From an uncultured virus (IMG/VR IMGVR_UViG_3300046499_000512) (taxonomy: Duplodnaviria; Heunggongvirae; Uroviricota; Caudoviricetes): a stretch of 63,993 nucleotides of DNA. The notes under the pieces are model-generated. The model saw only the letters and a program-made list of their open reading frames with translations, was not told the origin of the DNA and did no database searches. A program made the translations under genes and the position numbers. This document shows positions 32,743-55,038 of the stretch, piece after piece. Location of the stretch: IMG/VR virus record IMGVR_UViG_3300046499_000512; one strand, written 5' to 3'. Positions within the stretch are counted from its first letter, which is position 1, and each line of letters begins with the position of its first letter.

Positions 32743-33122
32743 CAGTCGCCCGGTGCTGCGGGGACGTTCACCGGCTCGTCGTCGGTGAGGGTCCACAGCA
32801 GGGCCTCCAGTTCCGGAGGGGTCCCGTGTGAGGGGTTCACCGCGTTGCGCCGCATGTCGGAGCGGAGGTCCAGAATGTGCCGGAGGGCCAGCCGAAGTAA
32901 CCGTTCCACCTTGATCGTCTTCGCTTCCTGGGCTTCTTGGCGCTCCTCGAACTCTTCCATCCGCTCTTGGTACGCCTTTTTGAAGATCTCGAATTCGCTG
33001 CTGTTGAGCTTCCGGTCTTCCGTCGTCTTCGTGTTACGGGATGCGAACCGGGATCCACCTAACACGCATAAGCTCCCGACAATTGCCGCCCCGGCGGTAA
33101 CGAGGCTATCCATACCACTCAC
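32742..33122 (-). CDS. Lysis-cassette membrane protein (TM plus coiled coil); 3 TTA
   Basis: N-terminal hydrophobic helix, coiled coil, PPEL end. Confidence 0.7.
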   Translation of the reverse strand: MSGMDSLVTAGAAIVGSLCVLGGSRFASRNTKTTEDRKLNSSEFEIFKKAYQERMEEFEERQEAQEAKTIKVERLLRLALRHILDLRSDMRRNAVNPSHGTPPELEALLWTLTDDEPVNVPAAPGD

Positions 33123-35532: not shown

Positions 35533-36171
35533 CTATGCGCCCGGCAGCACGAGACCGTCGAGGCCGACCCAGGACGTCTGTACGCCACTTCCCATGAACA
35601 CGACGATGTTTCCGCTGGCCGTGACGGAGATCTTGGCGGTTCCGGGAGGTGAACTCGTACCGGATACCGAGATGGTGGAGGCACCCTCGTAGAAGGGCTG
35701 GACGCTACTGACGGCGACTGCTGCCGGGAGGGTTCCGAGCGTGGTATTGCTCGGAATGTTCGAGCTGTTTATGGTGCCGATGTTTCCCCAGAGTGCCCAC
35801 GTATTCGCCCCCGAGTTGTAGACGGCGATGGGGTTCTTGCCGTTGGCGGCCTGGAAGCCGTCGGACAGGTTGATGGCGACGGGGACCGGGGCGACGGGGG
35901 CGGTCCAGACGGCCGACCAGACGGACGTTCCGACGTCGGAGGTCTTCACGTATACACCGGTCACCACGGTTGTGCCGCTGTTGCGGACCACGCAGATGAC
36001 GCCTGACGGGGCGTTGAAGAACTTGCTGTCCCGGTCGGCTGTCGAGGTGGCCGCGAGGACTAATCGTCCGTCCATGGCGGCCACTAACTGGGATAACCAG
36101 TAGGGCACGTCGTTGGTCCCGGCACTGTCCGGTATCGGTAGTCCCGAGAATGCGCTGTACGTTGCTCCCAC
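35533..36171 (-). CDS. Minor tail protein; 3 TTA
   Basis: Position and composition. Confidence 0.7.
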   Translation of the reverse strand: MGATYSAFSGLPIPDSAGTNDVPYWLSQLVAAMDGRLVLAATSTADRDSKFFNAPSGVICVVRNSGTTVVTGVYVKTSDVGTSVWSAVWTAPVAPVPVAINLSDGFQAANGKNPIAVYNSGANTWALWGNIGTINSSNIPSNTTLGTLPAAVAVSSVQPFYEGASTISVSGTSSPPGTAKISVTASGNIVVFMGSGVQTSWVGLDGLVLPGA

Positions 36172-36970: not shown

Positions 36971-38111
36971 GGACGGTGATCTCCTGCTTCGTGCTGCGGG
37001 TCGTGTAGGAGACGGCTCCGGAGCCCCACGTGTAGCTGATGGCGTCCACGAGGTGGCGTTCCTGGCGGCCGTCGAGGCGGCTGACCACGATGACGTCTCC
37101 GGCTTCCTGGGCGGGGTGGTAGCGGCCGGTGAGGCTGAGGGTCTTGGACTCGCCCACGAGGTCATCGAGGATGGCCTTGCCGACTCGCCACGCCTGCTGG
37201 TCGTTGACGATCAGCGGGGAGTCGTACCGGTAGGGCTTCACTCCGAAGTGCCCGGCCAGTTCCGGGTGGTTGATGGGGTCGGGGCCTGCGTAGGTCTTGG
37301 AGGCGGGGTCGTCGTCCCATACGAAGATCGGGCCGATCGGGGCGGATCCGTCTGCTGCTGCGCCGGTGATGGATACCAGGTTGTAGACGTTGGCCCGGTC
37401 GTAGGCGAACGCTGATGCGATCTTGGTCCTTGTGCCCTCCAGGACGGTCCACACGGGGTCGTCTGCCAGAGAAGGTCGCCGGACAAAGGCGAAGGCTCCG
37501 GAGGCGTCACAGAGGGCGTCAGCGCCCAGCGCGGTGGCAATGGAGGCGTCGCTCGCCGTGCCGTGCACGACCGACCAGCGGTCCGTGTCCACGGTCATGG
37601 CCACCATCGCGGCGGTGGAGGCCAGCCGGGAGTCCCAGGTGAACCGGGCGTCCGGGACAGCCTCTGTGATCAGCTTCTCCGCCTGCCTGCGGTACGTCGA
37701 GTACCGGTTGTCCGGCAGGTTCCTTGCCACAGGGAACTGTGCGTCGATGACGTCCTGCTCGAAGGAGATTCCGTCGATCGTCAGGTTGTTGACGCTCTCC
37801 GTGATCGCGGTGACGGAGTACAGGCCTGCCGGGATGTACTCGGGGGAGGATCCGAGGAAGCTCACGGCCATCCGCAGGCGCAGACGGCAGCCGTACGGGT
37901 GGATTCCTTCGTATCCGACGGTGACCGTCTTGGCGATGGTGGCGCCCAGCGCCCAGCGGGCTGTGCTGGTGCGGTCCTGCGTGTGGCTCCCGGAGATGAT
38001 CTCCAGCGGGTACCAGTTCTTCCAGTCCGGGGACCAGTCCAGGACCGGCTGGATCTGTAAGGCCGTGCCGTCGGACAGGGCCCGCGTGAGGCGCTCGGAG
38101 TGGGTGAGCAT
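36963..38111 (-). CDS. Minor tail protein (DUF5047-like baseplate hub)
   Basis: Position after Dit-like gene; YNLV...G, FG.KP..YDSPLI. Confidence 0.75.
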   Translation of the reverse strand: MLTHSERLTRALSDGTALQIQPVLDWSPDWKNWYPLEIISGSHTQDRTSTARWALGATIAKTVTVGYEGIHPYGCRLRLRMAVSFLGSSPEYIPAGLYSVTAITESVNNLTIDGISFEQDVIDAQFPVARNLPDNRYSTYRRQAEKLITEAVPDARFTWDSRLASTAAMVAMTVDTDRWSVVHGTASDASIATALGADALCDASGAFAFVRRPSLADDPVWTVLEGTRTKIASAFAYDRANVYNLVSITGAAADGSAPIGPIFVWDDDPASKTYAGPDPINHPELAGHFGVKPYRYDSPLIVNDQQAWRVGKAILDDLVGESKTLSLTGRYHPAQEAGDVIVVSRLDGRQERHLVDAISYTWGSGAVSYTTRSTKQEITVHV

Positions 38112-39451
38112 CAGATGTTCTCCATGCTCACCGCGTCAAAGTAGGCCTGCTGGCCCGCTGCTGTCGCCGTGACGACGACGTTGCAGATGGCTAAGGACGT
38201 CCCGGGCGGGGGCGTCACCGACAGAACGACCTTCGTCCAGGTCAGGGGGGTCAGGGTGACGGTGCGGCCCCACTCCGACAGGGAGTCCGTGGTGAGGTAG
38301 TTGCCTGCCCCGTCCAGCCAGTCGACCAGCAGGTCGGTTACCAGTCCGGTGGCCGAGTTCACCCACATCGAGTAGGTGTAGGTGAGGCCCGGGGTCACCC
38401 GGTACTGCGGGATGCCGGTGGCGCCGATCAGTCCGGCGGCGGTCGCGGTGAGACGGCGGGAGTAGGCGCCCCGGAACGGCAGGGCGGTGGTGCGCAGGAT
38501 CGTCGTGTTGCCGTTGTAGGAGTTCCAGCCGTTGCCGGGGGCGGAGCCGGACTCGCCCTCGGAGGTGTAGGCGTCCATCATGTTGCCGCCCTGGATGGCA
38601 TCGAACGGCAGCGGCAGCAGGTCGGAGAACAGGGGGGCCTGCGCGGTGGACGCGGCGAACGTGAAGGTCGGGGTCGCCACGGTCTGCCCGTAGGTGTTGG
38701 GGCGGCTGACCTCGATGAGTCCCAACTGCCACAGGTACACGCCCCGGCCGGTGCTCGCGGACTGCGCGGCGTAGGAGACGTCGTCCACGGTGAAATAGCC
38801 GTCGGGGCGTTCCCACAGCGACGACTTGCGCATGATCACGGTCTGGTTCAGCAGCTTCTGCATGGCGAGGAATTCGGCCTGGCCCACCGTCAGCACGGAT
38901 ATGGACGTGCCCAGTCCGTTGCGGGTGTCCGGGGTGACTACGGGGTAGGGGCTGCCCAGGACGGTCTGCTTGTCGTTGCGGCCGTTGTAGCTGCCGCCCA
39001 GCGTGGACGTGCCCCGGGCCTGGATGGAGGCGCTGGGGTCTTCCAGGTTGACCAGCCACATGTCGGGGGACATGTAGCCGCCTGTCGGGGCGGAGGTGGT
39101 GATGGCCGCCGAGGCGGACTGCTGCGCGAGGGCGCCCGTCGAGTCGACCGGGACCGCGTAGTAGGAGACCGCCTGTCCCAGGGGGGCTTCCTGGTCGTAC
39201 AGCCAGCCCTTGCCCGAGTAGTTCAGGTAGGGGTCTCCCCCGCGCACGGTGTGCACAGTGCCGTCCGCGTTCTCCCGGTAGACGGTGCACCGGAATGGGC
39301 TGGACCAGGAGGACAGGTCCAGGCTGTAGTCGAGCTTGATCCGGACGCCGCCGAACTTGGGGTCGTCAATCGCCCGGACCCGTCCGTCGAAAGAGGTCGC
39401 ATCAACCGTCGTGGACGAAACCGGGGAGGCTACAGGGACTACAACCGGCAT
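38111..39451 (-). CDS. Distal tail-like protein with C-terminal carbohydrate-binding module
   Basis: Follows tape measure; VRGG...YDQEAPLG motif; VTPGLTYTYSMWV CBM-like end. Confidence 0.7.
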   Translation of the reverse strand: MPVVVPVASPVSSTTVDATSFDGRVRAIDDPKFGGVRIKLDYSLDLSSWSSPFRCTVYRENADGTVHTVRGGDPYLNYSGKGWLYDQEAPLGQAVSYYAVPVDSTGALAQQSASAAITTSAPTGGYMSPDMWLVNLEDPSASIQARGTSTLGGSYNGRNDKQTVLGSPYPVVTPDTRNGLGTSISVLTVGQAEFLAMQKLLNQTVIMRKSSLWERPDGYFTVDDVSYAAQSASTGRGVYLWQLGLIEVSRPNTYGQTVATPTFTFAASTAQAPLFSDLLPLPFDAIQGGNMMDAYTSEGESGSAPGNGWNSYNGNTTILRTTALPFRGAYSRRLTATAAGLIGATGIPQYRVTPGLTYTYSMWVNSATGLVTDLLVDWLDGAGNYLTTDSLSEWGRTVTLTPLTWTKVVLSVTPPPGTSLAICNVVVTATAAGQQAYFDAVSMENI

Positions 39452-39452
39452 G

Positions 39453-42400
39453 TCACTTCTTCTTTCCTGCAACCGCCACGATCTCGGACACCTTTTCCTC
39501 CACGACCTTTTCCGTGTGGGCCCGGAACTTCTTGCCGTCGATGTTCACCATAATGGTATGCGGTGCGGTGACCGTTATCTTTGCCCCGGCCAGAGCCTTC
39601 GACTGCTTCTTCAGCGTGCTCAGTCCGAAGCCGTCGTCGGCGGCGGAATCCGCGTACTTCCCGGAAACCGTTTCCAGCTCCTTGTACGTGTCATTGAGCT
39701 TTTTCAGGTCGGCGGACGAAGAGGAGCGGGCCAGGGACTGGGCGAGCTGCCCGCCCTGCTCCGGACCCATGGCCGCGATCTGCTGGATGAGGGCCTGGGA
39801 CATGCCGAGCTTGGCCAGCGTGTGAAGGTTGACCTGGAAGTCCTTGATGGCCTTGATCTTCGCCTGGAGCTGCTGCGTGAACCCGGCGGCCCGGTTGCCG
39901 GACAGACCCGACAGGGCGCCGGTCTGCATCGCGGCGTCCTTGTAGGAGTTCCGGGCGTCGGTCGCAACGGCGATCTTCGCGTCGATCGCAGCCTTCTTGC
40001 CCGCAATGTAATCCTGGGCCGCCTTGCGCTCCTTCGAGATTTCCGCGTCCCGGGCCTTTTTCTTTGCGGCGGCGAGAGTCGCAGCGTCCTTGCGCTCCTG
40101 CTCCACAGCCTTCGAGGCGTTCTTGTAACGCTTCTCGTTCAGCTTGATCAGCTTGGTGTCGGAAGCTATTTCCTTGTTGGCCTTGTCGATCTGCTTGTCG
40201 TACTTGGCCATTTCCTTCTTTGCGGCGGCCTGCTCCTTGGCGGTCGTCGCGTGCAGGTACTTCGTGTGCGCGGCGTCGTACTTCTTCTGCGCCGCGTCAC
40301 GACGGGCCCTGTCCCTGTCGCGCTCTTCGAAGGCCTCGCGGACGACGTGGCGCTGGTGCCGGGTGCCGGTGCCCGAGGCGTACCCGTGCAGGCTGCCCAT
40401 GGAGGCCATGTGCAGGGAGTCCTTGTGGTTGTAGACGGTCTCCCCGCCGTGGAAGTTGACCAGCTCGGGGCCGCGTTCGCCGACCCAGGCCAGGCCGGAG
40501 GCGGCTCCGTTGGTACCCGTCCAGTAGCCCTTCGGGGCCTTGTTGGCGTTGGCCTGCTGAACGTTGTTGATGTTGCCGTACCTCGCCACGATGTACCTGA
40601 TCGCGGCCGCTACGTTGGCGACGGGGTCGGTGATGGAGCGGTCGGCGAGGGCCGCCGGGACGTAGGCGTGGAACGTGCCCGGGATCGTCTGCGCGAGGCC
40701 CTGGGACGGGTGCCCTGCCTTGGCGTTGGAGTCGGTCAAGTTGATCGCGTTCGAGTTCCAGCCGCTCTCGCGCGTGATCAACGTGTTGAGACCGGCCTGC
40801 CAGGCGCCCTTGGTCCCGGGCGGGGGGACGTTGGCGTACCGCATGGCCGCGTTGATGATGGCCAGGTGGCGTCCCTCGGGGATCTTCCCGCCGACGGCCA
40901 GGGCCTTCTTGTCCTCGCGGTTGACCCAGCCCTTGATGTCCTCCAGCGGCTTTTTCATGACGCCGCCTGCGAGGTTGCTCCAGGCGCCGCTGCCCGGGAC
41001 GATCTTGTCGATGGCGCCTTCGGCCTTGTTGATGACCGGGTTGACGATGGCAGCCAGCGCGCCGAGCGCGGCGTCTTCCAGGGCGTCCAGGCCCTTGTTC
41101 GCTGCGTTCTTGAGGCCGTCGCCCACGTCCGAGATCCAGCCGCCCACGCCGAACCGGCCCGTGGTGTTGGCGCCCATGACGGGGCGTCCGCCGTGCAGGG
41201 AGGACCGGAACGCCTGGACGGCGTGGTGACCGCCCATGGCCGCGACGTCCTCGCGGGTGAACACGTGCTCGTCCGGCATCAGGACCGCGTTGACGGAGTC
41301 CTTGCCCGGACGGGATCCGGCGGTGTGCGGGACGGGGCCACCGGCTGCGAAGTGGGGGATCTTGTCGGTGTTGATCTTGCCCAGCGGGTTGTCCTGGTGG
41401 ACGAAGCTGGAGATCTTGTCCATGATCTTCCAGATGGCGTCATTCCAGACATACTTCGCAACCCAGTAGATCGGGGTACCAATCGCCTTCTTGACGTTGT
41501 CCCAGACCTTCTGAATGCCCTTCCACGCCGAATCGAAGGCCTCAACCAGGCCCTTCTTCATCGTCGTTCCCCAGCCGGGGATGGTCTTGGTGAAGAACGT
41601 GCCCATCGGGGAGAACACGTTGTTCTTGATGGCCCGCCACTTGTCCCCGATCCAGTCCTGGATGCTCTGGAACACCGGCTTGATGGAGCCCTGCCACAGG
41701 TTCCGCGCCGCACCCGACACGGCGTCCCAGGCGGGCTTGAGGATGTGGTTGTTGACCCACTTGAAGCCGTTGGCCATCGCGCGCCAGCCGTCGCCGATCC
41801 AGCCGAAGACCGGACCCAGCGTGTGATCCCACACAGCCTTTCCTGCCGAGGCGAAGGCGTCCCAGGCAGGCTTCAGGATGTGGCCGACGACCCACTTGAA
41901 GCCCGTCCCCAGGGCGTGCCAGCCGTCCGAGATCCAGCCCAGCACGGGCTTGATCCCGAACACCCACAGCGCCTTGATCGCGGCCTCGAACAGGATGAAG
42001 ATGACCTTGAAAATCGTTTCGTGGACCTTCCACCACACCTTGGCCACGGTCACGAACGCGTCACCGATGGCGACGAAGACCGGCTTGATGTAGCCCCACA
42101 GCCACGCGGCCCCGGCGACGATGGCGCTCCAGACGCCCTTGATCGTCCCCCAGACCTTGGTCCAGTTGGCAGCGATCCAGGCGATGGCACCGATCGGGCC
42201 GAGCAGGAGCGCGAGCAGGCCGAACTTGCCCCGCAGGAACTCCACCGTGGCGTTGAAAGCAGTTTTGATCCCGCCCCACACCATGTGCCAAAGCTGCTGG
42301 AACCAGGTGGTCTTCGTCGCGATGATCACAATGACCGCGACCAGTGCCACGATGCCCGCGATGATCACACCGAGCGGGCTGAGACCCCACGCGATCGTCA

Positions 42401-44213
42401 GAGCGATCCAGGCCGTCTCCATGGCACCGATCACACCAACCAGGACGTCCCAGACCACCACGGCCGCGTTCCAGCCGATGATCGCCAGCTTCCACGCGAT
42501 CATCGCGTCCGCGATCAGCCGGATCGTGCCCGGCGGCAGCGCGTTGACGATGTCCACGATGGCCTTGCTGGTGATCCCGATGACCGGGGCCAGCGCGACC
42601 GCCACATCGGCGATCGACTGGAAGATCTCGCCGAAAGCCTTGATCGCAGCAGGCTGGACCTGGCCGACCGCGTCCGCGATACCGCCGATGACCTTCGCGA
42701 GAGCGTCACCGTTGGTCTGGCCGGTGCCGGAGAGGATGTCCCAGACGTGCTGTGTCAGCCTCACCAGACCGGACAGGATCGGCCGGACCTGCGCCCAGGC
42801 CCGCTTCACGGACTCCTTGAAGCGCTCGGCGCCGCCGTTCTTGCCCCACTTGTCGGCGGCCTTCCCGACGTGCCCGATGTACTCGGACATCTTCAGCGCC
42901 CACGGACCGAACGCCCGGATGATCGCGCCGCCTGCCGTGAGGAAGCCCTTGAACCCGCCGATGGTGTTCTTGAGGATCGGAACGCCGTACGTCTGCAAGA
43001 ACGTGACGAACCGGGTCAGGCCGTCCCCGCTCATCCAGTTCTTGAGAGAGTCGGCCACGTCCTGGACGACCGGCGCCAAGTCCTTGACCAGCGGAATGAA
43101 CTTGGGCAGGGCGGCAGCAGCGCCCTGGATGACCGTGGTCACCGGGGCCAGCGTGTACTTGCTGGTCGCGCCGATGAACGACTGCCAGGCACCCTTCGTC
43201 TGCTCGATGGAGGCGTTGAACTTCTTCTCCGCCGGGGTGAGGTCGTCAATGGCCTTCTTGTGGGCCTTCTCCGCCTCCGTGACGTCCTTCAGCGCCTTCT
43301 TGTACGCCTCGGTACCCGCCGTGGTCCCGGCGAGGCGTTCCTGGGCCTTCTCCAGGGCGATCTGGGTCAGGTCGACGGCCTTCGCGTGGGCTGTGGCCTG
43401 CTTGACCGCACCCACGGTGGCCATGCCGTAGATGCCCAGCGCACCACCAGCCGCGACACCGAACGAGGCCACGGCTGCTGTCGCGCCGCCCAGCAGGGTC
43501 GTCAGTGCGGGGAGCTGCGGGAGAACCGAGGCGATGAGCCCTGGAAGGCTGACAAGCGCCCCCAGGTGCAGATTGAGGGGGTCCTTGATCTTCCGGTTGC
43601 GACGGCCGCCGCTGTCGTCGTCATCGTCGTCCGGGTCGCCGTCACCGAGGTCCGGTACATGCGGCGCATCCGGATCCGGGTCCGGGTCGTTGTTGCTCGG
43701 ACTCACCCGGGGACGGGGACCGCCGCCGGTCGTGTTGGTCCGGATCGTGATCGGCGCGGCTGCGGCGGCCCGAAGGGCGGCGAGAGAGGCAGCGGCGGCG
43801 GCCGTGTCCACGTCGGCGTGAATCGTGATCGTCCGCATGTTCATCGCGGTGATCTCGGCGTCTAACAGAGCGAGTGTGGCGCGGGCGGCAGTGTCATCGA
43901 TCTGGGCACGGATGTTGATCGACGTGGCGTTTAATCGGTCTGCCTGGCCCTGTAACGCGGTGAGCTGGGTGGCTAAGCTGTCGTAGCCCGATAACGCTGC
44001 CGTCACGGAGATGTTCCGTAAGCTGGCTAACTCGTCCTTTAACGCACGGAGTTTGGCCTTGGCCTCCGTGTCGTCCAGGTCGATCTTCGGGCTGTACTTC
44101 GTCTTCTGGAACTCTTCGGCGTCCTTCTTTGCCTGGTTGAGTTCCCGGTTGAAGTCGGACCGGTCCAGCTTGAGGGACGCCTCGATCGAACCGGCATTGT
44201 AAGCTCCCGCCAC
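39453..44213 (-). CDS. Tape measure protein with lytic transglycosylase domain
   Basis: 1586 aa, W-rich amphipathic repeats, RESGWN...SQGLAQTIPGTF...AIRYI SLT motif. Confidence 0.95.
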   Translation of the reverse strand: MAGAYNAGSIEASLKLDRSDFNRELNQAKKDAEEFQKTKYSPKIDLDDTEAKAKLRALKDELASLRNISVTAALSGYDSLATQLTALQGQADRLNATSINIRAQIDDTAARATLALLDAEITAMNMRTITIHADVDTAAAAASLAALRAAAAAPITIRTNTTGGGPRPRVSPSNNDPDPDPDAPHVPDLGDGDPDDDDDDSGGRRNRKIKDPLNLHLGALVSLPGLIASVLPQLPALTTLLGGATAAVASFGVAAGGALGIYGMATVGAVKQATAHAKAVDLTQIALEKAQERLAGTTAGTEAYKKALKDVTEAEKAHKKAIDDLTPAEKKFNASIEQTKGAWQSFIGATSKYTLAPVTTVIQGAAAALPKFIPLVKDLAPVVQDVADSLKNWMSGDGLTRFVTFLQTYGVPILKNTIGGFKGFLTAGGAIIRAFGPWALKMSEYIGHVGKAADKWGKNGGAERFKESVKRAWAQVRPILSGLVRLTQHVWDILSGTGQTNGDALAKVIGGIADAVGQVQPAAIKAFGEIFQSIADVAVALAPVIGITSKAIVDIVNALPPGTIRLIADAMIAWKLAIIGWNAAVVVWDVLVGVIGAMETAWIALTIAWGLSPLGVIIAGIVALVAVIVIIATKTTWFQQLWHMVWGGIKTAFNATVEFLRGKFGLLALLLGPIGAIAWIAANWTKVWGTIKGVWSAIVAGAAWLWGYIKPVFVAIGDAFVTVAKVWWKVHETIFKVIFILFEAAIKALWVFGIKPVLGWISDGWHALGTGFKWVVGHILKPAWDAFASAGKAVWDHTLGPVFGWIGDGWRAMANGFKWVNNHILKPAWDAVSGAARNLWQGSIKPVFQSIQDWIGDKWRAIKNNVFSPMGTFFTKTIPGWGTTMKKGLVEAFDSAWKGIQKVWDNVKKAIGTPIYWVAKYVWNDAIWKIMDKISSFVHQDNPLGKINTDKIPHFAAGGPVPHTAGSRPGKDSVNAVLMPDEHVFTREDVAAMGGHHAVQAFRSSLHGGRPVMGANTTGRFGVGGWISDVGDGLKNAANKGLDALEDAALGALAAIVNPVINKAEGAIDKIVPGSGAWSNLAGGVMKKPLEDIKGWVNREDKKALAVGGKIPEGRHLAIINAAMRYANVPPPGTKGAWQAGLNTLITRESGWNSNAINLTDSNAKAGHPSQGLAQTIPGTFHAYVPAALADRSITDPVANVAAAIRYIVARYGNINNVQQANANKAPKGYWTGTNGAASGLAWVGERGPELVNFHGGETVYNHKDSLHMASMGSLHGYASGTGTRHQRHVVREAFEERDRDRARRDAAQKKYDAAHTKYLHATTAKEQAAAKKEMAKYDKQIDKANKEIASDTKLIKLNEKRYKNASKAVEQERKDAATLAAAKKKARDAEISKERKAAQDYIAGKKAAIDAKIAVATDARNSYKDAAMQTGALSGLSGNRAAGFTQQLQAKIKAIKDFQVNLHTLAKLGMSQALIQQIAAMGPEQGGQLAQSLARSSSSADLKKLNDTYKELETVSGKYADSAADDGFGLSTLKKQSKALAGAKITVTAPHTIMVNIDGKKFRAHTEKVVEEKVSEIVAVAGKKK

Positions 44214-44369
44214 TGGCCCGACCTTTCATCACCCTCGTGTACAGCATTGCGTTGCGGATTCCAAGATTACCTGCTAAAAGGGGCGATTAGCCATAGCCTA
44301 AAACGCTCGTGGGGCCGAAGCCTTTTACGGCTCCGGCCCCACGATCTCCACCCGGCACGGCGAGTCTTT

Positions 44370-44968
44370 TTAGGTCCCGGGAGGCATGTCGTCCCAACTG
44401 GTCAGTTCCTGTGGCTCTGACCCGCCGGAATCGCCGTCCTCGTTGTACTCCGGGTCCTCGTTTAGCTGTTCGATGTACATCCGCTGGTCGTGCCAGGGCA
44501 TGTCATCCCATTCGCGCCGGGTGATATGGAAGATTTTCAGCACCGTGTAATACAGACGGCGCTGTTCCTCTCCCCCGGTCAGGCCGTCGTAGCGCCCGTC
44601 AATTTTCCCGGGTTGAACTGCTCCTGGAGCCACTTCGAGAAGAGCACCTTGTGGCGCCACGGGAGCTGGGCCAGGGTCTCCACGGACGGGGTGTTCTTGC
44701 AGAGCTTGGCGGTCAGCGCGTCCATGCGCTTCTCCAGCTCCTCAGCGCGCTCGGAGACGCGCTCCAGGTCTTCACCCGATAACTCCTCGGGGTCGAGATC
44801 CTGGACGTCCTTGTACTCGTTGATGACCGCCATCACGGCCCGGCGGTAGCCCGCCATGGCCTGCTGGCTGGGCTCGGGAACGGTGCCCGTCGCCTCGGGG
44901 CCCTCCACGAAGCCGGTGAAGTCGTAGTCGAGGGGTTCGACCGCCGTACTTGCCTTGAAACCTGCCAT
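44370..44968 (-). CDS. Tail assembly chaperones G (44579-44968) and GT (-1 frameshift, ends 44370)
   Basis: Slippery G GGA AAA at 44609-44603; -1 frame continues GKIDGRYDG... Confidence 0.85.
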
Positions 44969-45029
44969 GGTGTTGTAGTCCTTCTCGCTGTGCCGGGTGA
45001 ATAGTTCGATCTGAGGGATCACGTGGCCC

Positions 45030-45626
45030 CTACGGAAGCGCGGCGGCTACCATTTCCTGGATCTTGACGTCGGCCGGGGCGCAGGTGCCTTCGAACTGGA
45101 AGGAGTACATGCGCTTCTCGTTGGCCCTGCGGAACGAGGTGTCCACGTTGGTGCCGACGACGCCCATCGGGATGAGGTACCGGCGCCAGAAGCCCTGAAC
45201 GTTGATGGTCTCCAGGCCGATCGCCCAGTAGTTCAGGTTGTCCTGGAGCGTCAGGGTCTGGTAGCCCGGGATGCCGGACGCTGCGGCGGTGGTGACGAGA
45301 CTGCCGCCGCCGTAGGCCCACAGGGCGTGCTGGAGGTTGTCCTCCGCGAGGTCGCCCGTGACCTGGTAGCTGTGGCTGTCGGCGATGACGAGAGCCGGGG
45401 TCGACTGCTCCTCGATGGAGATCGTCTTGGTGGACGTGCCGACCTGGAGCTTCCAGCCCTGGTCGGTGGCGCCGAGGTTCTGCCAGTTGCCGCCCCAGTC
45501 CGCGCCCTTGGTGACGGTGACCGCCGGTAACTGGGCCGGAATGAGGGCGTCGTACGGCTGGATCCAGGCACTCGCGACGCCGACGACGACGTTCTTCGGG
45601 TTTACTGCTCCGGGCGTAGTAATCAC
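45030..45626 (-). CDS. Major tail protein
   Basis: Position; WQNLGATDQG motif; one TTA. Confidence 0.85.
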   Translation of the reverse strand: MITTPGAVNPKNVVVGVASAWIQPYDALIPAQLPAVTVTKGADWGGNWQNLGATDQGWKLQVGTSTKTISIEEQSTPALVIADSHSYQVTGDLAEDNLQHALWAYGGGSLVTTAAASGIPGYQTLTLQDNLNYWAIGLETINVQGFWRRYLIPMGVVGTNVDTSFRRANEKRMYSFQFEGTCAPADVKIQEMVAAALP

Positions 45627-47722: not shown

Positions 47723-48637
47723 CTAGATGCCCGTGATCACACGACCGGCCTTCGGCTGGTCAAGGAAGATCGCGCTCTGGCGGACGACGTTGCAGCGCCA
47801 CGTCTCGTTGGTGGAGTTGTGCTCCAGCGGCGTGACGTCCAGGGCGCGCTCGTCGGCGATGCCGCCGATGGTCTTGGCCTCCAGGAGGATCGCCGAGTTC
47901 GCCGGGACACGCCACGACTTGACGATCTTGAACTGGCCGAAGAGCAGGCCCGGCAGGGTCAGCTTGTCGGCGGACGCCGTACGGTCGGAGCCGACGAAGT
48001 ACTTGTTCATGTCCGAGTTCAGCGCCAGGTCCATCGCACGCGCGTGGTGCAGGATCAGCGTGTCGGGCTCGAAGCCGAACTTGGCGACGCCGGTCTGGTT
48101 GGTGGACTCCGCGTCGGCGAGCTGGATGGCCAGCATCGCGTTCGCCAGCGTGGAGCGGACGTCCGTCGCGGTCGCCCAGGCGGTACCCGAAGCGGTCGAC
48201 GCGAGACCGGCGATGGCGGACGTCAGGAACGCGTCCTCCCACGCCGCCTTCATCGAGTTCACGACCTGCGTGATGCTCGTGTTGACGCGGTCCATGTCGT
48301 TCCGGCGCCGCATCTCCTCGGTGAACTCGATACCGAAGGCGCGCTTGATGGTGCGCGCGGCCTTGCCGATGCCGAGGTTCGCCGTGATCAGCGGGATCTC
48401 GCCGCCTTCAGCGACCACCGAGGGGCCGCCGTTGGCGTAGAGCGGAGTGGACTCGTTGTACAGGACGACGCCGCTGGGAACGTCCTGCACCTTGCGTAAC
48501 ACCTGGTCGGTGATGAACTGCTGGTCGGCCAGGGCGAGAATCCGCTCCCTGATGACCGCAGGCCGCTTGAGCAGGGTGTTGACTGTGAGGCGGTAGCCGT
48601 CGTTGCTGGAAACGGTTCCGACCGTGGTCTGAGGCAT
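47723..48637 (-). CDS. Major capsid protein
   Basis: VAEGGEIP, PDTLILH; position after scaffold and decoration genes; TTA at codon 47. Confidence 0.85.
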   Translation of the reverse strand: MPQTTVGTVSSNDGYRLTVNTLLKRPAVIRERILALADQQFITDQVLRKVQDVPSGVVLYNESTPLYANGGPSVVAEGGEIPLITANLGIGKAARTIKRAFGIEFTEEMRRRNDMDRVNTSITQVVNSMKAAWEDAFLTSAIAGLASTASGTAWATATDVRSTLANAMLAIQLADAESTNQTGVAKFGFEPDTLILHHARAMDLALNSDMNKYFVGSDRTASADKLTLPGLLFGQFKIVKSWRVPANSAILLEAKTIGGIADERALDVTPLEHNSTNETWRCNVVRQSAIFLDQPKAGRVITGI

Positions 48638-49170: not shown

Positions 49171-50766
49171 TCAGTGACGGCCGTACTGCTCGCCCCAGAG
49201 CGAGGCGAGGTGCTTGTCTTCCTGAGCGGCCATGGCCTCACGGTCGTCGCTCTCCGGGGAGTAGCTGTGACCGCGTTCGCGGGCCAGGTCGATGTAGCCG
49301 GTAGCCGAGTCGAGTAGCTGCCGGACGATGGCGGAGGCGTCCACCGTTTCGATGCCGCCTACCTGGTTGGAGAACTCCAGCGTCGCGGCGGAGCCCGCGA
49401 TGAGGACGGGCCTGGCCAGGTCGACCAGCGCGGCGGGGACGCCCTTGCGGACGTACTCGGCCTTGAGCGTGGTGAACTGCTGGAGCGCCAGTTCGTGCTG
49501 GAGCAGCGCGACCTGGTTGGACAGGCTGACGATCTCGGGGCCTGCCTCGTTGGAGAGGCTGACCGATCCGGCGCCGACCAGTACCGGGGCGGGCTCGGTC
49601 TCCGCTTCGGCGGCGGCCTGTGCGGCGGCCTCCTCGGCGAGGGCCTCGGCCTCCACGGATCCCTCGGCGGCTTCGTCCTTCGCGCGGGCGGTCTCCCACA
49701 GCGCGGCGAAGTCTTCGTCGGTGAGGTCGTCCAGGTCGGCGTCGGTGCCGAGGGTGGGGTCTTCGGTTCCCAGCCCGCTGTTGAAGTCCCCGGTGCCCAG
49801 GCGTTCGACCAGTTCAGCGGTGGTCGGCTCGGCGTCGGCTTCGGCGGTGACCTCGGTCTCCTCCTCGGCGACAGCCTCGGTCTCACCCTCGGTGTCCTCG
49901 GCGGTGAGGCCCAGCTCTGCGGCCAGCGCCTCCAGCTCGTCGTCGGTGAGGTTCTCCACGGCCGCCTCGATGTCCTCCTCGGTGGGGAGGTCCATCTCAG
50001 CGTCGGTGTCCAGGTCCAGGAGACCGGGCTCGCCCGGCTCCTCGATCAGCTCGTCGGAGTCGTCGGCGTCGGCGGAGGCCTCGGGGGTCTCGTCCGGGAC
50101 GAAGGCGGAGGCGAAGATCGCCAGCTCCTCATCCGTCATGTCGAGGGCTTCGAGGTCTTCTACGGTCATGTCGGTAGCCTCGGCCACCTGCTGTAAATGG
50201 TCGGCACGTGTGGCCATGTGCTCCAACTCCTCGTATGAGGTCGCGGACAGGTCAATCACGTTTTCGACGGCCACTCCGTTGGACAGCGCCACCTCTTCCC
50301 AGGTGCCAAGTCCGGGAATGACCGGGTCCAACGTGCCCAGAACATGCTGAAGCGCCCGGGGGAATTGCTTCCCGTCCGAGCGCTGGTAGTTCTCAAGGAT
50401 CCGAGCGGACACGCCTAACTTGGGGTTCTGCTCCAGAACCTTGGCAGCCTCCGGGGTGACGGAAAAGATGCCGTACAGACCGTCGTCCCCGACTTCCACC
50501 TGCTTGATCTCGCCGCGAAAACGCTCGGGATCCAGGGTGTGGGAGTTGTTGTCCGGGGCCATCATGAACGCTACCTGGTCGTAGGCGCCGTCCTTGAAGG
50601 AGTTGGCCAGGTCAGCGAGGTAGGCAGCGTCGAAGGTGATCTTCCGGCCCCGGTAGTTGATCGTGGCCTTGGGAAGGATCCTTTTCCGGAACGTCTTGTT
50701 GGACAGCGCGACGGCGTCACCATCATCCTGAGGGGATAACAGTAATTCGCTCTCGACCATCCTCAT
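49171..50766 (-). CDS. Capsid maturation protease fused to acidic scaffold (probable internal start at 50217)
   Basis: H...GVSA...HVLGTLDP protease region; acidic C-terminal half; internal RBS GAGGAG before MATRAD; 4 TTA. Confidence 0.8.
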   Translation of the reverse strand: MRMVESELLLSPQDDGDAVALSNKTFRKRILPKATINYRGRKITFDAAYLADLANSFKDGAYDQVAFMMAPDNNSHTLDPERFRGEIKQVEVGDDGLYGIFSVTPEAAKVLEQNPKLGVSARILENYQRSDGKQFPRALQHVLGTLDPVIPGLGTWEEVALSNGVAVENVIDLSATSYEELEHMATRADHLQQVAEATDMTVEDLEALDMTDEELAIFASAFVPDETPEASADADDSDELIEEPGEPGLLDLDTDAEMDLPTEEDIEAAVENLTDDELEALAAELGLTAEDTEGETEAVAEEETEVTAEADAEPTTAELVERLGTGDFNSGLGTEDPTLGTDADLDDLTDEDFAALWETARAKDEAAEGSVEAEALAEEAAAQAAAEAETEPAPVLVGAGSVSLSNEAGPEIVSLSNQVALLQHELALQQFTTLKAEYVRKGVPAALVDLARPVLIAGSAATLEFSNQVGGIETVDASAIVRQLLDSATGYIDLARERGHSYSPESDDREAMAAQEDKHLASLWGEQYGRH

Positions 50767-53217: not shown

Positions 53218-55038
53218 ATGCCCGACAATATCTCCCCTCCCAAGTCGGTGGCAACCTTGACCGCCTCCACCCCCGTAACGCACGCCACGCTCGACACGGG
53301 CTGGCTGATGACCAAGAACGGCGTCATCCACGTCATCACGCGGGGACGCGACCCGCAGGATTCCTCCCAGTACATCCTGGATGAGGAGGCTTACGGCAAT
53401 TTCGACATTGTGGCCCTCGGCATCATCGCGGACGACAAGACCGAGCGCCGGGCCTGGGACGTCGTGATCAAGCGTCAGGACGACGGCAAGGAACTGCGCC
53501 GCATCCTGGACGAGAAGACCCTCGCGGACAGCAAGCGTCTGACGCTGTGGCTGACCTCGGCCGGAGTCTCCGTGATGTGCCCGGACGGTGCCCTCGGGGG
53601 CGGCGTGGCCCAGGGGGTCCGCCTGCTGCGCTACATCAACGCCCAGAAGCCCCCTGAGGCCACGATCGTGGACCAGGTGGGGTACCACCCCGACCTGAAC
53701 CTGTTCGTGTCCCACGACGGCGTCCTGCGGCCTGGAGACAGTAAGTTCGACGTCACCGCCCCCTACCGGCCCTCCGCGCAGCTCTCCACGTCGGGGGATG
53801 CCCCGTTCTCCTACGGTTTCGCCCCCAAGGGCCTGGAGGAGGTACGGGACGTCCTCTCCCAGGTGCTGACGTTCCATGACGAAACGCCCCTCGCGGTCGC
53901 GGCGTCCTGGATGGTCATGAGCCTGGTGCAGTCCGCGATCATCCGGCACACCTCGCACTTCCCCGTCCTCGCGGTCGAAGCCCCCTCGGGATCCGGCAAG
54001 ACCACGGGTGCGCTGTCGATGCTCCGTCAGGCCCTCACGGGCAACACGTCCGGCCCCTCACAGGCCACGCTCCCCGACCTGCGGCAGAAGATCGCCAGCA
54101 CGCGTTCCGGGTTCGTGCACGTCGATGACCTGGACGACCCCAAGACCGTCTTTGAGATGCTGCGGCTGTCGACGGCCGACGGGACGAAGATGATGCGCTC
54201 CCACGCCTCGGGGTTCACCGCCTCCCAGCACTCCCAGATGACCGGAACCGTGCTGCTGACCGGCGAACACCTGGGCCTGAAGGCGCAGAAGGCCCTGGCG
54301 GATCGTTTCATCTCCCTGGAGCTGACCGACCCGACCGATCGCAAGTCCCAGGTTCCGGGCCGGGAACACCTGTCCCAGTGGACCGACGTCACCGCGCTGA
54401 TGCGGCGCTACCCGGGCGCCAGCGGTCTGACCGCCGTCGCCGGAACCGTCGTCGCGGAGATCCTGCGCTGGCTCGATGACCTCGAAGCGCTGCTGGATGA
54501 GGTCAAGCCCTGCTCGGGGCGTCTCGGCGACAAGTACGCGACGGTCCTCGCGGGGGCCTGCTTCGTGGATCACCTGCTGGGGGACCAGAAAGCGTGGTCC
54601 AAGAAGGGTGCCACGTTCGAACGCGTCTCGGCCTGGGTGAAGGAAGACCTCAAGACCGCGAACGCGTGGGACAACGCGCTCACCTCGGAAGTCCTCGTGT
54701 GGGCCCTGCACGAGTACGGCGAGTGGTTCGGGGTCGCGCCGGACTCGTTCGAGCCGGTCAAGATCTCCGGGAAGACCTTCATCAACGCCCCGGCCTTCTA
54801 CAAGGAATTCGGCATGGAGGGGGAAGGGATCTTCATACACCCGCGCACCCTCGCGGACGCCTGGCGGGCTCACAAGGGCAACCAGTTCGAGGACCGCGTG
54901 CACTCGGCCGCCGCGATCGTCGCACAAGCCAAGGTGGCGGGGTTCCAGGAGAAGGTGATCAAGATCCTGAACAAGTCGGTGAAGGGCTGGGCCCTCACCG
55001 GGGACCGGGTCGGAATCATCCGCGACCGCGCCAGCTAG
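53218..55038 (+). CDS. Replicative helicase/initiator paralog 2 (DUF927/Cch-like P-loop NTPase)
   Basis: EAPSGSGKTT, VHVDDLD, ALADR; colinear with 6146-7963; promoter-like GTGTTAGGGT at 53135. Confidence 0.75.
   Translation: MPDNISPPKSVATLTASTPVTHATLDTGWLMTKNGVIHVITRGRDPQDSSQYILDEEAYGNFDIVALGIIADDKTERRAWDVVIKRQDDGKELRRILDEKTLADSKRLTLWLTSAGVSVMCPDGALGGGVAQGVRLLRYINAQKPPEATIVDQVGYHPDLNLFVSHDGVLRPGDSKFDVTAPYRPSAQLSTSGDAPFSYGFAPKGLEEVRDVLSQVLTFHDETPLAVAASWMVMSLVQSAIIRHTSHFPVLAVEAPSGSGKTTGALSMLRQALTGNTSGPSQATLPDLRQKIASTRSGFVHVDDLDDPKTVFEMLRLSTADGTKMMRSHASGFTASQHSQMTGTVLLTGEHLGLKAQKALADRFISLELTDPTDRKSQVPGREHLSQWTDVTALMRRYPGASGLTAVAGTVVAEILRWLDDLEALLDEVKPCSGRLGDKYATVLAGACFVDHLLGDQKAWSKKGATFERVSAWVKEDLKTANAWDNALTSEVLVWALHEYGEWFGVAPDSFEPVKISGKTFINAPAFYKEFGMEGEGIFIHPRTLADAWRAHKGNQFEDRVHSAAAIVAQAKVAGFQEKVIKILNKSVKGWALTGDRVGIIRDRAS

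What the first reader, a model, noticed from the sequence alone, without database searches (positions are those of the whole stretch)
43863..44042. Eight TTA codons packed into codons 58-117 of the tape measure gene
TTA occurs at codons 58, 62, 65, 74, 80, 87, 94 and 117, which is 8 of the 11 Leu codons in that stretch. I found none in the remaining ~1470 codons. Such a cluster looks like a deliberate ribosome-stall switch on a low-copy, essential tail protein. It lies at the head of a possibly separate transcript (terminator 44307-44344 upstream), so it could be polar on all downstream tail genes.
Basis: partly seen in the sequence, partly recalled or inferred. Interest (0 to 1): 0.8.

Follow-up and report, generated by a model that had tools for sequence, protein, structure and literature searches.

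The report
Conserved TTA-codon cluster in tape-measure gene
The start of this soil phage's tail tape-measure gene carries a conserved pile-up of the very rare leucine codon TTA, the extreme case of a habit shared by many of its particle genes, which probably makes particle building depend on one scarce host tRNA.

Summary
The 1586-codon tape measure gene (39453-44213, minus strand) has TTA at codons 58, 62, 65, 74, 80, 87, 94 and 117. That is 8 of the 11 Leu codons there and none of its other 106 (P <= 3e-8).

It is not chance. Eight lineages of the same ~125-kb uncultured actinophage clade keep 3-8 TTAs in the first ~145 codons of this gene. The Leu sites shift between lineages, although synonymous sites are near saturation. 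Sister groups, including Streptomyces phage Bogota, have none. No overlapping ORF, DNA repeat or conserved RNA fold explains it.

The cluster is the extreme of a clade-wide habit:
- About half of virion-module genes carry in-frame TTA, nearly always within the first 120 codons.
- No tRNA-Leu(UAA) gene was found; the only phage tRNA has anticodon CAA.

My best reading is a selected slow-decoding throttle or gate that ties tape-measure synthesis, and possibly coupled tail-gene synthesis, to host tRNA-Leu(UAA). bldA-type developmental gating is plausible but untestable, because the host is unknown.

The upstream hairpin (44307-44344) is real and covaries; its terminator function is unproven. This scan has noted TTA-tagged late genes before in other actinophage lineages.

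The parts
39453..44213 (-). Tape measure protein gene: 1586 codons, GTG start, SLT lytic transglycosylase domain at residues 1136-1235.
   Evidence: ORF. PHROG tape-measure families (best E = 1.8e-55). Pfam SLT domain. 32% identical to the annotated tape measure of Streptomyces phage Bogota.
43863..44042 (-). TTA cluster: codons 58, 62, 65, 74, 80, 87, 94 and 117, which is 8 of the 11 Leu codons in this stretch.
   Evidence: Conserved with positional turnover in relatives.
44211..44227 (-). Ribosome-binding site GAAAGG, an 8-nt spacer, and the GTG start of the tape measure gene.
   Evidence: Conserved in 5 lineages.
44261..44271 (-). Invariant GGTAATCTTGG in the intergenic leader. It contains TAATCT, a possible -10 element; that reading is inferred only.
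   Evidence: Invariant in 5 lineages except the last bases in L017. Unique in the window.
44307..44344 (-). Conserved G+C-rich hairpin (16-bp stem) followed by GCGUUUU. Candidate leaky terminator, attenuator or mRNA 3'-end stabiliser between the chaperone genes and the tape measure gene.
   Evidence: 21 predicted pairs in the whole consensus, of which 7, all in this stem, show compensatory changes across 5 lineages. Not called by the terminator scan. No Rfam family matches.
44345..44365 (-). Invariant 21-nt block ACTCGCCGTGCCGGGTGGAGA, lying a few bases after the GT-chaperone stop codon. Function unknown.
   Evidence: invariant in 5 lineages. Unique in the window.
44370..45022 (-). Tail assembly chaperone pair. 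G is 44579-45022. The -1 slippery site G_GGA_AAA is at 44603-44609, and the GT extension ends at the TAA at 44370-44372. There is one TTA at 44780-44782.
   Evidence: 43% identical to Bogota gene 23.
45030..45626 (-). Major tail protein gene with a single TTA at codon 33 (45528-45530).
   Evidence: 54% identical to Bogota's annotated major tail protein. The codon-33 TTA is kept in 5 of 5 lineages. In three further lineage groups the single TTA sits at codon 102 instead.
47723..48637 (-). Major capsid protein gene with a single TTA at codon 47 (48497-48499).
   Evidence: PHROG major head protein, E = 1.7e-60. There is one TTA per lineage: at codon 47 in 3 lineages and at codon 17 in 2.
38111..39451 (-). 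Next tail gene. Its likely ATG at 39449-39451 lies one base after the tape measure stop (TGAcATG).
   Evidence: PHROG tail protein. The same spacing is seen in relatives.

Best explanation
The TTA cluster is a selected, codon-level device: a run of slowly decoded UUA codons at the 5' end of the tape-measure mRNA.

How it would work. No tRNA-Leu(UAA) gene was found in this phage clade, so each UUA must wait for the host's tRNA-Leu(UAA). In high-G+C actinobacteria that is a minor, usually single-gene tRNA (recalled, not tested here). Four to eight such codons within about 100 codons would make tape-measure output a steep function of the supply of that tRNA. Slowed ribosomes queue back towards the start site and limit initiation. 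Because the next tail gene starts one base after the tape-measure stop, its translation may follow.

The cluster is the strongest instance of a clade-wide tagging of virion, packaging and lysis genes with 5'-proximal TTA. Together with the conserved upstream hairpin and the GTG start, it keeps the tail-length ruler low and conditional relative to the abundant major tail protein encoded just upstream.

If the host is a streptomycete, the tRNA read is bldA, and the device would gate tail and virion production on the host's physiological or developmental state.

Shown: the cluster, its codon-level specificity, its conservation with turnover, and the absence of a phage tRNA-Leu(UAA) gene in the DNA examined.

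Inferred: slow decoding, the throttle effect, coupling to the downstream gene, and the bldA link.
For: 1. Non-random placement. All 8 TTAs lie within 11 consecutive Leu codons of 117, P <= 2.6e-8.

2. Conservation with positional turnover. TTA positions in the tape-measure gene by lineage:
- window / L006: 58, 62, 65, 74, 80, 87, 94, 117
- L003-5: 62, 65, 74, 80, 87, 94
- L009/10: 16, 62, 74, 87, 117
- L016: 46, 58, 62, 74, 140
- L017/18: 14, 16, 46, 117 (plus 1505)
- G011/L032: 16, 74, 84
- L034-36: 16, 74, 84, 117
- L037: 16, 62, 70 (plus 355, 498)
. Meanwhile 4-fold third-site identity between the window and the 62-76% aa-identical lineages is 0.43-0.62, against 0.39 expected at random. The N-terminal part is no better conserved than the rest.

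3. The effect is on the codon, not the RNA word. In genes of at least 200 codons, in-frame TTA is 32-fold enriched in the first 120 codons. Out-of-frame TTA is enriched only 2-3-fold.

4. It is TTA-specific in late genes.
- The major tail gene keeps TTA at codon 33 in 5 of 5 lineages.
- The capsid gene keeps exactly one TTA per lineage.
- Other rare codons there are sporadic: seen in one lineage, at most two.
- TTA is retained between the window and G002 in 11 of 18 and 11 of 15 cases. Compare TTG 2/7, CTT 3/12, AAA 1/8 and GCA 5/34.

5. Late-module enrichment, as genes with TTA in the late module against the rest:
- window: 14 of 33 against 7 of 43 (p = 0.019)
- G002: 14 of 25 against 9 of 100 (p = 1e-6)
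- G011: 16 of 34 against 15 of 136 (p = 1e-5)
. As TTA/Leu in the first 120 codons of late genes: 29/282, 23/233 and 24/305. Beyond codon 120: 2/479, 3/505 and 0/543.

6. No decoder found. There is no tRNA in the window. G002 (89 kb) and the 97%-complete G011 (125 kb) each hold one tRNA, with anticodon CAA. The window and G002 together tile the genome.

7. Sister groups at similar G+C lack the feature. Bogota has 0 TTA among 1171 Leu codons in 72 CDS. L041-43, L047-50 and L054 have 0 TTA in 703-746 tape-measure codons seen.

8. Context fits down-tuning: a conserved hairpin before the gene, a GTG start, and a TGAcATG junction to the next gene.

9. Literature.
- A TTA bias towards gene starts is reported as a streptomycete trait (PMC4255298, passages).
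- A 5' UUA in slpR makes phage-tail-like particles bldA-dependent (PMC8505568, passages).
Against: - There is no direct evidence of slow decoding, stalling or tRNA limitation. No RNA or ribosome data exist for this phage.
- The host is unknown. The nearest cultured phages infect Streptomyces, but are only 32-54% identical in protein. bldA-type scarcity cannot be assumed.
- The abundant capsid and major tail proteins also carry a TTA. A pure 'low-copy throttle' reading is therefore incomplete, and a single TTA evidently does not prevent high expression.
- The window also shows a general 5' enrichment of other rare A-ending codons (CAA, CGA, CCA, CTA). Part of the 5' bias could be a generic ramp.
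- Two lineages have TTAs far inside the gene: L017 at codon 1505 and L037 at codons 355 and 498.
- Gene calls outside the tape-measure locus come from my own crude caller (longest ORF, GC3-GC2 score). Codon numbers and gene counts there are approximate.
- G002 is 70% complete, and the window's own remaining ~55 kb was not available.
Confidence: 0.55

Rival explanations
1. Host-independent tuning. The TTAs are simply the slowest available codons and act as a constitutive 5' 'ramp'. The ramp spaces ribosomes and sets fixed protein ratios from a polycistronic late mRNA, with more TTAs giving less protein. Nothing about the host's state is sensed.
For: - Rare codons in general decline smoothly over the first ~120 codons. 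Five rare A-ending codons together fall from 6.0% at codons 1-20 to <= 0.5% after codon 120.
- The highest TTA doses are in the tape measure (8) and in three other proteins of unknown function with 3-4 TTAs each (window 49171-50766, 60621-61775, 35533-36171). The capsid and major tail genes have one each.
- TTA positions are flexible while the count is kept.
Against: - In late genes only TTA is conserved. Other equally rare codons are not.
- Those other rare codons are commoner in early genes, while TTA is 4-10 times commoner in late genes.
- A ramp would not need one particular codon.
- Sister phages at similar G+C have no such ramp. Bogota GC3 is 0.91, 0.95 and 0.95 across codons 2-40, 41-120 and beyond 120, with 0 TTA.
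- This rival shares the slow-decoding step with the best explanation. It differs only in whether tRNA supply varies.
Confidence: 0.25
2. Recoding. Hungry UUA codons trigger frameshifting, drop-off or hopping. The cluster would then yield alternative or truncated tape-measure products, as proposed for UUA-triggered bypassing in phage phiHau3 terminase.
For: - UUA-mediated bypassing is proposed, with some experimental support, for a Streptomyces phage terminase (PMC10732093; abstract, passages and one section read).
- Five of the 8 TTAs are followed by A or G, so a +1 slip would meet TAA or TAG at once.
Against: - The tape-measure frame is intact in every lineage. There is no frame-breaking insert after any TTA.
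- Five of 8 followed by a purine seems about what chance would give; I did not compute the background.
- I saw no conserved slippery context, and the alternative frames are closed in relatives.
- TTA positions shift between lineages.
Confidence: 0.07
3. No function. Selection against rare codons is relaxed at gene 5' ends, where errors are cheap, and combined with mutation bias this lets TTA accumulate there by drift.
For: Increasing codon adaptation along genes is a known general pattern (recalled, no call). The window shows such a gradient: GC3 is 0.74, 0.84 and 0.90 across codons 2-40, 41-120 and beyond 120 of long genes.
Against: - Eight of 11 Leu as TTA while neighbouring non-Leu GC3 stays at 0.84 cannot come from drift.
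- TTA is retained in 61-73% of cases across near-saturated synonymous divergence.
- Codon 33 of the major tail gene is TTA in 5 of 5 lineages.
- Out-of-frame TTA is not similarly enriched.
Confidence: 0.05
4. An overlapping nucleotide-level element dictates the TTAs. Candidates are an antisense constraint (TAA stops on the + strand), an overlapping ORF, a protein-binding array or an RNA structure.
For: A 1509-aa antisense ORF (39336-43865, + strand) ends exactly at the complement of codon 117.
Against: - That antisense ORF is a shadow frame. It stays open only because the gene body has no TTA, CTA or TCA codons. In relatives it would be broken elsewhere: CTA at codon 1134 in L016 and TTA at 1505 in L017.
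- Alternative sense frames carry stops in relatives.
- There is no DNA tandem repeat.
- There is no conserved fold: the covariation term is +3.6 kcal/mol (a penalty) and the single-sequence z-score is -1.29.
- TTA sites move between lineages.
Confidence: 0.03

Closest known systems
bldA (tRNA-Leu-UAA) / TTA-codon translational control in Streptomyces. An example is the 5' UUA in slpR/SCO4263, which makes phage-tail-like particles bldA-dependent (PMC8505568, passages; PMC2000904, passage; PMC4255298, passages).
   Same: - A rare in-frame TTA placed near the 5' end of genes.
- Dependence on a tRNA that the element does not encode.
- The positional bias towards gene starts that is reported as a streptomycete trait.
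   Different: - Here the TTAs sit in phage structural genes themselves, including the most abundant ones, not in a regulator.
- Up to eight are packed into 60 codons.
- The host, and therefore bldA itself, is unidentified.
- No expression test exists.
UUA-triggered translational bypassing in the Streptomyces phage phiHau3 terminase (PMC10732093; Smith et al. 2013 is cited there but is not held in the library).
   Same: A phage late gene uses the rare UUA codon as a proposed reader of the host's tRNA state.
   Different: In phiHau3, UUA heads 10-nt frame-breaking inserts that must be hopped over. Here the reading frame is intact and the TTAs encode conserved leucines. The same paper states that Streptomyces phage genomes usually lack UUA entirely, which this clade contradicts if its host is a streptomycete.
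5' codon 'ramp' of slowly translated codons (general concept, recalled; no paper read here).
   Same: Rare codons are concentrated at the beginning of genes, and the frequency declines smoothly.
   Different: The gradient reaches ~120 codons. In late genes one specific codon is conserved across lineages, while other rare codons are not.
Streptomyces phage CW39: nine TTA-containing genes, with a suggested bldA link to solid-medium-dependent infection (PMC13350457, one discussion passage read).
   Same: A phage with in-frame TTA codons and a proposed bldA dependence.
   Different: In CW39 the nine genes are two HNH endonucleases and seven hypothetical proteins. No conservation, positional pattern or tape-measure cluster was reported in the passage I read.
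Earlier notes of this scan on other uncultured soil actinophage lineages: e1-5328283 and e1-5356903 ('TTA codons mark phage late genes').
   Same: Virion-module genes are tagged with TTA, mostly within the first ~120 codons, and no phage tRNA for it was found.
   Different: Those are different genomes; a sequence look-up found no overlap with this window. The dense eight-codon tape-measure cluster, its turnover across eight lineages and its absence from sister clades are shown here.

Membership tests
bldA-dependent (TTA-containing) gene of streptomycetes | In-frame TTA codon(s) encoding leucine | tested here: met
   Eight in-frame TTAs at conserved Leu positions.
bldA-dependent (TTA-containing) gene of streptomycetes | Expressed in a host whose only UUA decoder is the developmentally limited bldA tRNA | not testable with these tools
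   The host is unknown and no genome is held for the window. The nearest cultured relatives infect Streptomyces but at 32-54% aa identity.
bldA-dependent (TTA-containing) gene of streptomycetes | Protein output falls in a bldA mutant and is restored by TTA-to-CTG change | not testable with these tools
   This needs a reporter or infection experiment.
bldA-dependent (TTA-containing) gene of streptomycetes | TTA biased towards the start of genes (reported as streptomycete-specific; PMC4255298 citing Chater & Chandra 2008) | tested here: met
   In genes of at least 200 codons, TTA/Leu is 28/286 in the first 120 codons against 2/813 after. G011 late module: 24/305 against 0/543.
bldA-dependent (TTA-containing) gene of streptomycetes | No decoder supplied by the element itself | tested here: met
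   The window has 0 tRNAs. G002 and the 97%-complete G011 each have one tRNA, with anticodon CAA. The window's own missing ~55 kb was not seen.
Hau3-type UUA-triggered translational bypass | Reading frame interrupted by a short insert that begins with TTA | tested here: not met
   The frame is continuous over 1586 codons, with intact orthologues in all lineages.
Generic 5' rare-codon ramp | Rare codons of several kinds enriched near gene starts | tested here: met
   CAA 31/156 against 4/399, CGA 33/270 against 4/421, CCA 13/253 against 2/487 (first 120 codons against later). The decline is smooth.
Generic 5' rare-codon ramp | Rare codons interchangeable, with no selection for one particular codon | tested here: not met
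   In late genes only TTA is conserved between lineages. TTA is late-enriched, whereas CTA, CAA, CGA and CCA are early-enriched.
Siphophage tape measure protein | Homology to tape-measure families, large size, and position after the G/GT chaperone pair and before distal tail genes | tested here: met
Intrinsic (Rho-independent) terminator | Stable G+C-rich hairpin | tested here: met
   A 16-bp stem with 7 covarying pairs.
Intrinsic (Rho-independent) terminator | U-tract directly after the stem | tested here: inconclusive
   Only 3-4 U, starting 3 nt after the stem. The scan's criteria are not met.

The most novel reading that the evidence does not exclude
A whole clade of ~125-kb soil actinophages has turned the host's scarcest tRNA into a checkpoint for particle assembly. 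Nearly every key virion gene carries a conserved 5' TTA 'tag'. The tape-measure gene, which nucleates tail assembly, carries a multi-TTA cluster that works as an ultrasensitive threshold. Tails, and hence infectious particles, would then be made only in host cells or hyphal compartments where tRNA-Leu(UAA) (bldA) is active. That would be a phage-encoded sensor of host developmental state. It is the opposite of the published view that Streptomyces phages must purge TTA.
Probability: 0.3. Interest if true: 0.85.

Novelty: new variant of a known kind. Interest (0 to 1): 0.66.

Why it matters
TTA/bldA control is a classic of Streptomyces biology. Passages I read say that Streptomyces phages usually lack UUA altogether (PMC10732093). 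An earlier paper suggests that scarcity of the bldA tRNA may have evolved partly because UUA in highly expressed phage genes would hurt the phage (PMC2000904).

This clade does the reverse. It conserves TTA in its most important particle genes and stacks up to eight in the tail-length ruler. If slow decoding is confirmed, three things follow:
- a simple, portable example of translational dosage or gating by codon choice in a virus;
- a possible link between phage production and host development in soil actinobacteria;
- a ready-made test piece, the first ~130 codons, for measuring how multiple rare codons combine.

It also gives a sequence signature for finding such phages in metagenomes: 5'-restricted, late-gene-restricted TTA with no matching tRNA.

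Tried and rejected
- **Nucleotide search of the 5' region against cultured phages:** no match.
- **No whole genome is held for the window,** so the host tRNA set and the rest of this phage could not be read.
- **Genome-contig scan with the N-terminal 238 aa:** 601 pattern matches, none a relative.
- **Metagenome-contig scan:** only one distant hit from a ~51% G+C organism (L011). It is not informative.
- **Sequencing runs:** no RNA holder is listed. The holders are rhizosphere, soil and one freshwater metagenome, kept as contigs.
- **Laying four runs:** contigs span the stretch, but the table of differences was cut (52 rows not shown). It says nothing usable about the TTA positions.
- **Rfam:** nothing in the locus or in the whole window.
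- **Tandem Repeats Finder:** no repeat in the TTA stretch.
- **The repeat finder:** rejected my minus-strand reference. I did not repeat it.
- **Conserved RNA structure over codons 50-125:** none.
- **Conserved overlapping ORF in other frames:** none.
- **Antisense 1509-aa ORF:** rejected as a shadow frame.
- **Recent duplication of the ~30-aa N-terminal protein repeats as the source of the TTAs:** rejected. There is no DNA-level repeat, and the sites differ between lineages.
- **A phage-encoded tRNA-Leu(UAA):** not found in 10 related records beyond G002 and G011. These are fragments of 8-40% completeness plus two 91-92%-complete genomes of the Bogota-like sister group.
- **Scan notebook:** look-ups by place and by sequence returned nothing.
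- **Smith et al. 2013 (PMC3807479):** not held. Its content is cited only through PMC10732093.
- **In print?** Searches listed no paper whose title or abstract start describes conserved TTA clusters in phage tape-measure or other structural genes. The library does not cover most subscription journals.
- **Host identification:** I had no workable route to it.
Full report
**What is there.**
- The window is about half of a ~115-125-kb lytic siphophage genome of ~65% G+C. PHROG and Pfam scans identify these genes:
  - portal and a MuF-like protein;
  - a 1756-aa protein with an ADP-ribosyltransferase domain;
  - scaffold and major capsid;
  - head-tail adaptor, tape measure, tail proteins and holin;
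  - a replication module.
- CheckV figures attached to related records imply the genome size: 21.7 kb = 17%, 89.5 kb = 70%, 124.9 kb = 97%.
- The window and the 89-kb relative G002 overlap at both ends and together tile the genome.
- The finding lies in the ORF at 39453..44213 on the minus strand.
- It is the tape measure gene. The evidence is PHROG tape-measure families, an SLT domain, and 32% identity to the annotated tape measure of Streptomyces phage Bogota.
- It follows the major tail protein gene, which is 54% identical to Bogota's.
- It also follows a G/GT chaperone pair with the -1 slippery site G_GGA_AAA.

**The observation.**
That is 8 of the 11 Leu codons in that span and 0 of the other 106 Leu codons.
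- The probability of such clustering among the gene's 117 Leu positions is at most 2.6e-8. None of 200,000 permutations came near it.
- It is not a local A+T-rich patch. Non-Leu GC3 there is 0.84 against 0.90 in the gene body, and none of the six Gln codons in the first 120 is CAA.

**Is it selected?**
- Scans of IMG/VR with the tape measure, its N-terminus and the major tail protein recovered relatives. They fall into seven further lineages of the same clade, with tape-measure N-terminus 53-99% identical and major tail protein 83-99% identical.
- Every lineage has 3-8 TTAs in the first ~145 codons of the tape measure gene. The Leu sites overlap but are not identical. In window numbering they are 14, 16, 46, 58, 62, 65, 70, 74, 80, 84, 87, 94, 117 and 144. 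Sites 70 and 84 are given in the lineages' own numbering.
- In the six lineages whose whole gene was read (window, L003-5, L009/10, L016, L017, G011), only one TTA lies beyond codon 145: codon 1505 in L017. For L034-36 and L037 only the first 437-726 and 530 codons were seen. L037 has two extra TTAs, at codons 355 and 498.
- Four-fold third-position identity between the window and the 62-76% identical lineages is 0.43-0.62, against 0.39 expected from composition alone. Synonymous sites are therefore close to saturation.
- The N-terminal 160 codons are no better conserved at those sites than the rest of the gene.
- A codon that makes up ~0.2% of Leu codons outside gene starts cannot reappear 3-8 times in the same 400 bases of eight diverged lineages without selection. 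The moving positions point to selection on presence and number, not on a fixed nucleotide element.
- Sister groups lack the feature altogether.
  - Bogota has 0 TTA in 72 CDS.
  - The Bogota-like contigs L041-43, and more distant contigs at 64-66% G+C, have 0 TTA in 703-746 tape-measure codons seen.
  - Relatives at 52-57% G+C have TTAs scattered along the gene.

- No conserved overlapping ORF exists. The other sense frames carry stops in relatives.
- The 1509-aa antisense ORF that ends at the complement of codon 117 is a shadow frame. It is open only because the gene body has no TTA, CTA or TCA codon. It would be broken elsewhere in relatives.
- There is no DNA repeat and no conserved RNA fold.

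**The wider pattern.**
- Using a crude caller of my own (longest ORF, GC3-GC2 score), the window has 41 TTAs in 21 of 74 genes.
- In the 29 genes of at least 200 codons, TTA/Leu is 28/286 in the first 120 codons against 2/813 later.
- The enrichment is 32-fold for in-frame TTA but only 2-3-fold for the same trinucleotide out of frame, so it acts at the codon level.
- Genes of the virion/lysis module carry TTA more often than the rest:

| Genome | Late module | Rest | p |
|---|---|---|---|
| window | 14/33 | 7/43 | 0.019 |
| G002 | 14/25 | 9/100 | 1e-6 |
| G011 (97% complete) | 16/34 | 15/136 | 1e-5 |

- In G011 all 24 late-module TTAs lie within the first 120 codons.
- Other rare A-ending codons (CAA, CGA, CCA, CTA) are also 5'-biased. 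However, they are commoner in early genes, whereas TTA is 4-10 times commoner in late genes.
- Those other rare codons are not conserved between lineages in late genes.
  - The major tail gene keeps TTA at codon 33 in 5 of 5 lineages. In three further lineage groups the single TTA sits at codon 102.
  - The capsid gene keeps exactly one TTA, at codon 47 or 17.
  - The other rare codons there turn up in one lineage, at most two.
- Between the window and G002, TTA is retained in 11/18 and 11/15 aligned cases. Compare TTG 2/7, CTT 3/12, AAA 1/8 and GCA 5/34.

**Who reads the codon?**
- ARAGORN and Rfam find no tRNA in the window.
- G002 and G011 each have a single tRNA, with anticodon CAA. By standard wobble rules it pairs with UUG, not UUA; that is established knowledge, not tested here.
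- UUA decoding must therefore fall to the host. The caveat is that the window's own missing ~55 kb was not seen.
- The host is unknown. The nearest cultured phages infect Streptomyces griseus or S. scabiei but are only 32-54% identical in protein.

**Upstream region.**
- The 156-nt spacer between the GT stop and the tape-measure start is unusually conserved. It holds:
  - an invariant 21-nt block;
  - the 16-bp hairpin at 44307-44344, with 7 covarying pairs, followed by GCGUUUU;
  - an invariant GGTAATCTTGG;
  - a conserved ribosome-binding site.
- This fits a leaky terminator or mRNA-end stabiliser followed by a possible promoter. Neither is shown, and the consensus scan called neither.
- The next tail gene starts one base after the tape-measure stop.

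**Mechanism.**
- The most economical reading is a selected run of slowly decoded codons. It would make tape-measure synthesis depend steeply on host tRNA-Leu(UAA), and possibly also synthesis of the coupled downstream tail gene.
- It sits within a clade-wide TTA tagging of late genes.
- Whether the tRNA supply varies (a gate, bldA-like) or is simply low (a constant throttle) cannot be decided without the host.
- I put ~0.55 on tRNA-limited throttling or gating as the function. Within that, ~0.3 goes to true host-state (bldA-type) gating.
- The rivals and their odds are given separately.

**Relation to the literature.**
- Passages read in PMC10732093 state that Streptomyces phage genomes usually lack UUA. 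They describe UUA-triggered bypassing in the phiHau3 terminase.
- PMC2000904 speculates that UUA in highly expressed phage genes would penalise the phage.
- PMC4255298 reports the 5' positional bias of TTA as a streptomycete trait.
- PMC8505568 shows bldA dependence of phage-tail-like particles through a regulator's 5' UUA.
- PMC13350457 lists nine TTA genes in phage CW39.
- Three library searches listed no paper whose title or abstract start describes conserved TTA clusters in phage structural genes. The library's coverage is incomplete.
- Earlier notes of this scan (e1-5328283, e1-5356903) report TTA-tagged late genes in other soil actinophage lineages. I took them as a lead and tested the analogous claim on this clade.

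**Verdict.** This is a real, selected feature. It is a new variant of TTA-based translational control, with a strong comparative footing but no functional test.

Noticed in passing
whole window; clearest in genes at 1-31.6 kb: A genome-wide 5' codon gradient. GC3 rises from 0.74 (codons 2-40) to 0.84 (41-120) to 0.90 (beyond 120) in 29 long genes. CAA, CGA, CCA and CTA are 5-20 times commoner in the first 120 codons than later. This is stronger in early genes than in late genes, and absent from Streptomyces phage Bogota. It is partly confounded by my crude start-codon calls.
   Followed up: partly
window 44214-44369 (minus strand): A highly conserved non-coding leader before the tape measure gene. 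It holds an invariant 21-nt block, a covarying 16-bp hairpin and an invariant GGTAATCTTGG. All are unique in the window and have no Rfam match.
   Followed up: partly
L020 1501-1583 (G002) and L062 1500-1575 (G011): The clade's only tRNA has anticodon CAA in both genomes, and both are followed by the same CGTGAACA. It has a long variable arm (82-83 nt) in G002 but a short one (75-76 nt) in G011. Its amino-acid identity in G011 is therefore uncertain. I did not test whether it bears on TTA/TTG decoding.
   Followed up: partly
window 53218-55038 (+): A primase-polymerase-like gene on the opposite strand, in the middle of the virion module. It is 40% identical to a second copy at 6146-7963 (-), and is conserved in place in G002 and G011.
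   Followed up: no
window 55354-60624 (-) and 62222-62842 (-): A 1756-aa protein with a C-terminal ADP-ribosyltransferase domain (Pfam PF03496, E = 1e-12), near a MuF-like gene. Bogota has an annotated ADP-ribosyltransferase in the same position.
   Followed up: no
window 39336-43865 (+): A 1509-aa antisense 'ORF' across the tape measure gene. It is a shadow frame caused by the total absence of TTA, CTA and TCA codons from codon 118 onward.
   Followed up: yes
window 44603-44609 (-): A classical -1 frameshift heptamer, G_GGA_AAA, joins the chaperone ORF G to the T extension that ends at 44370.
   Followed up: yes
window 49171-50766, 60621-61775, 35533-36171, 32742-33122 (all minus strand): Other genes with small TTA clusters near their starts: codons 8/10/117/191, 8/15/23, 26/29/37 and 18/21/75. 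Several of these sites are kept in G002. No PHROG or Pfam function was found, apart from one PHROG family of unknown function for 35533-36171.
   Followed up: partly
L037 (relative's tape measure gene): This lineage has TTAs at codons 355 and 498 in addition to 16, 62 and 70. It is an exception to the 5'-only rule.
   Followed up: no
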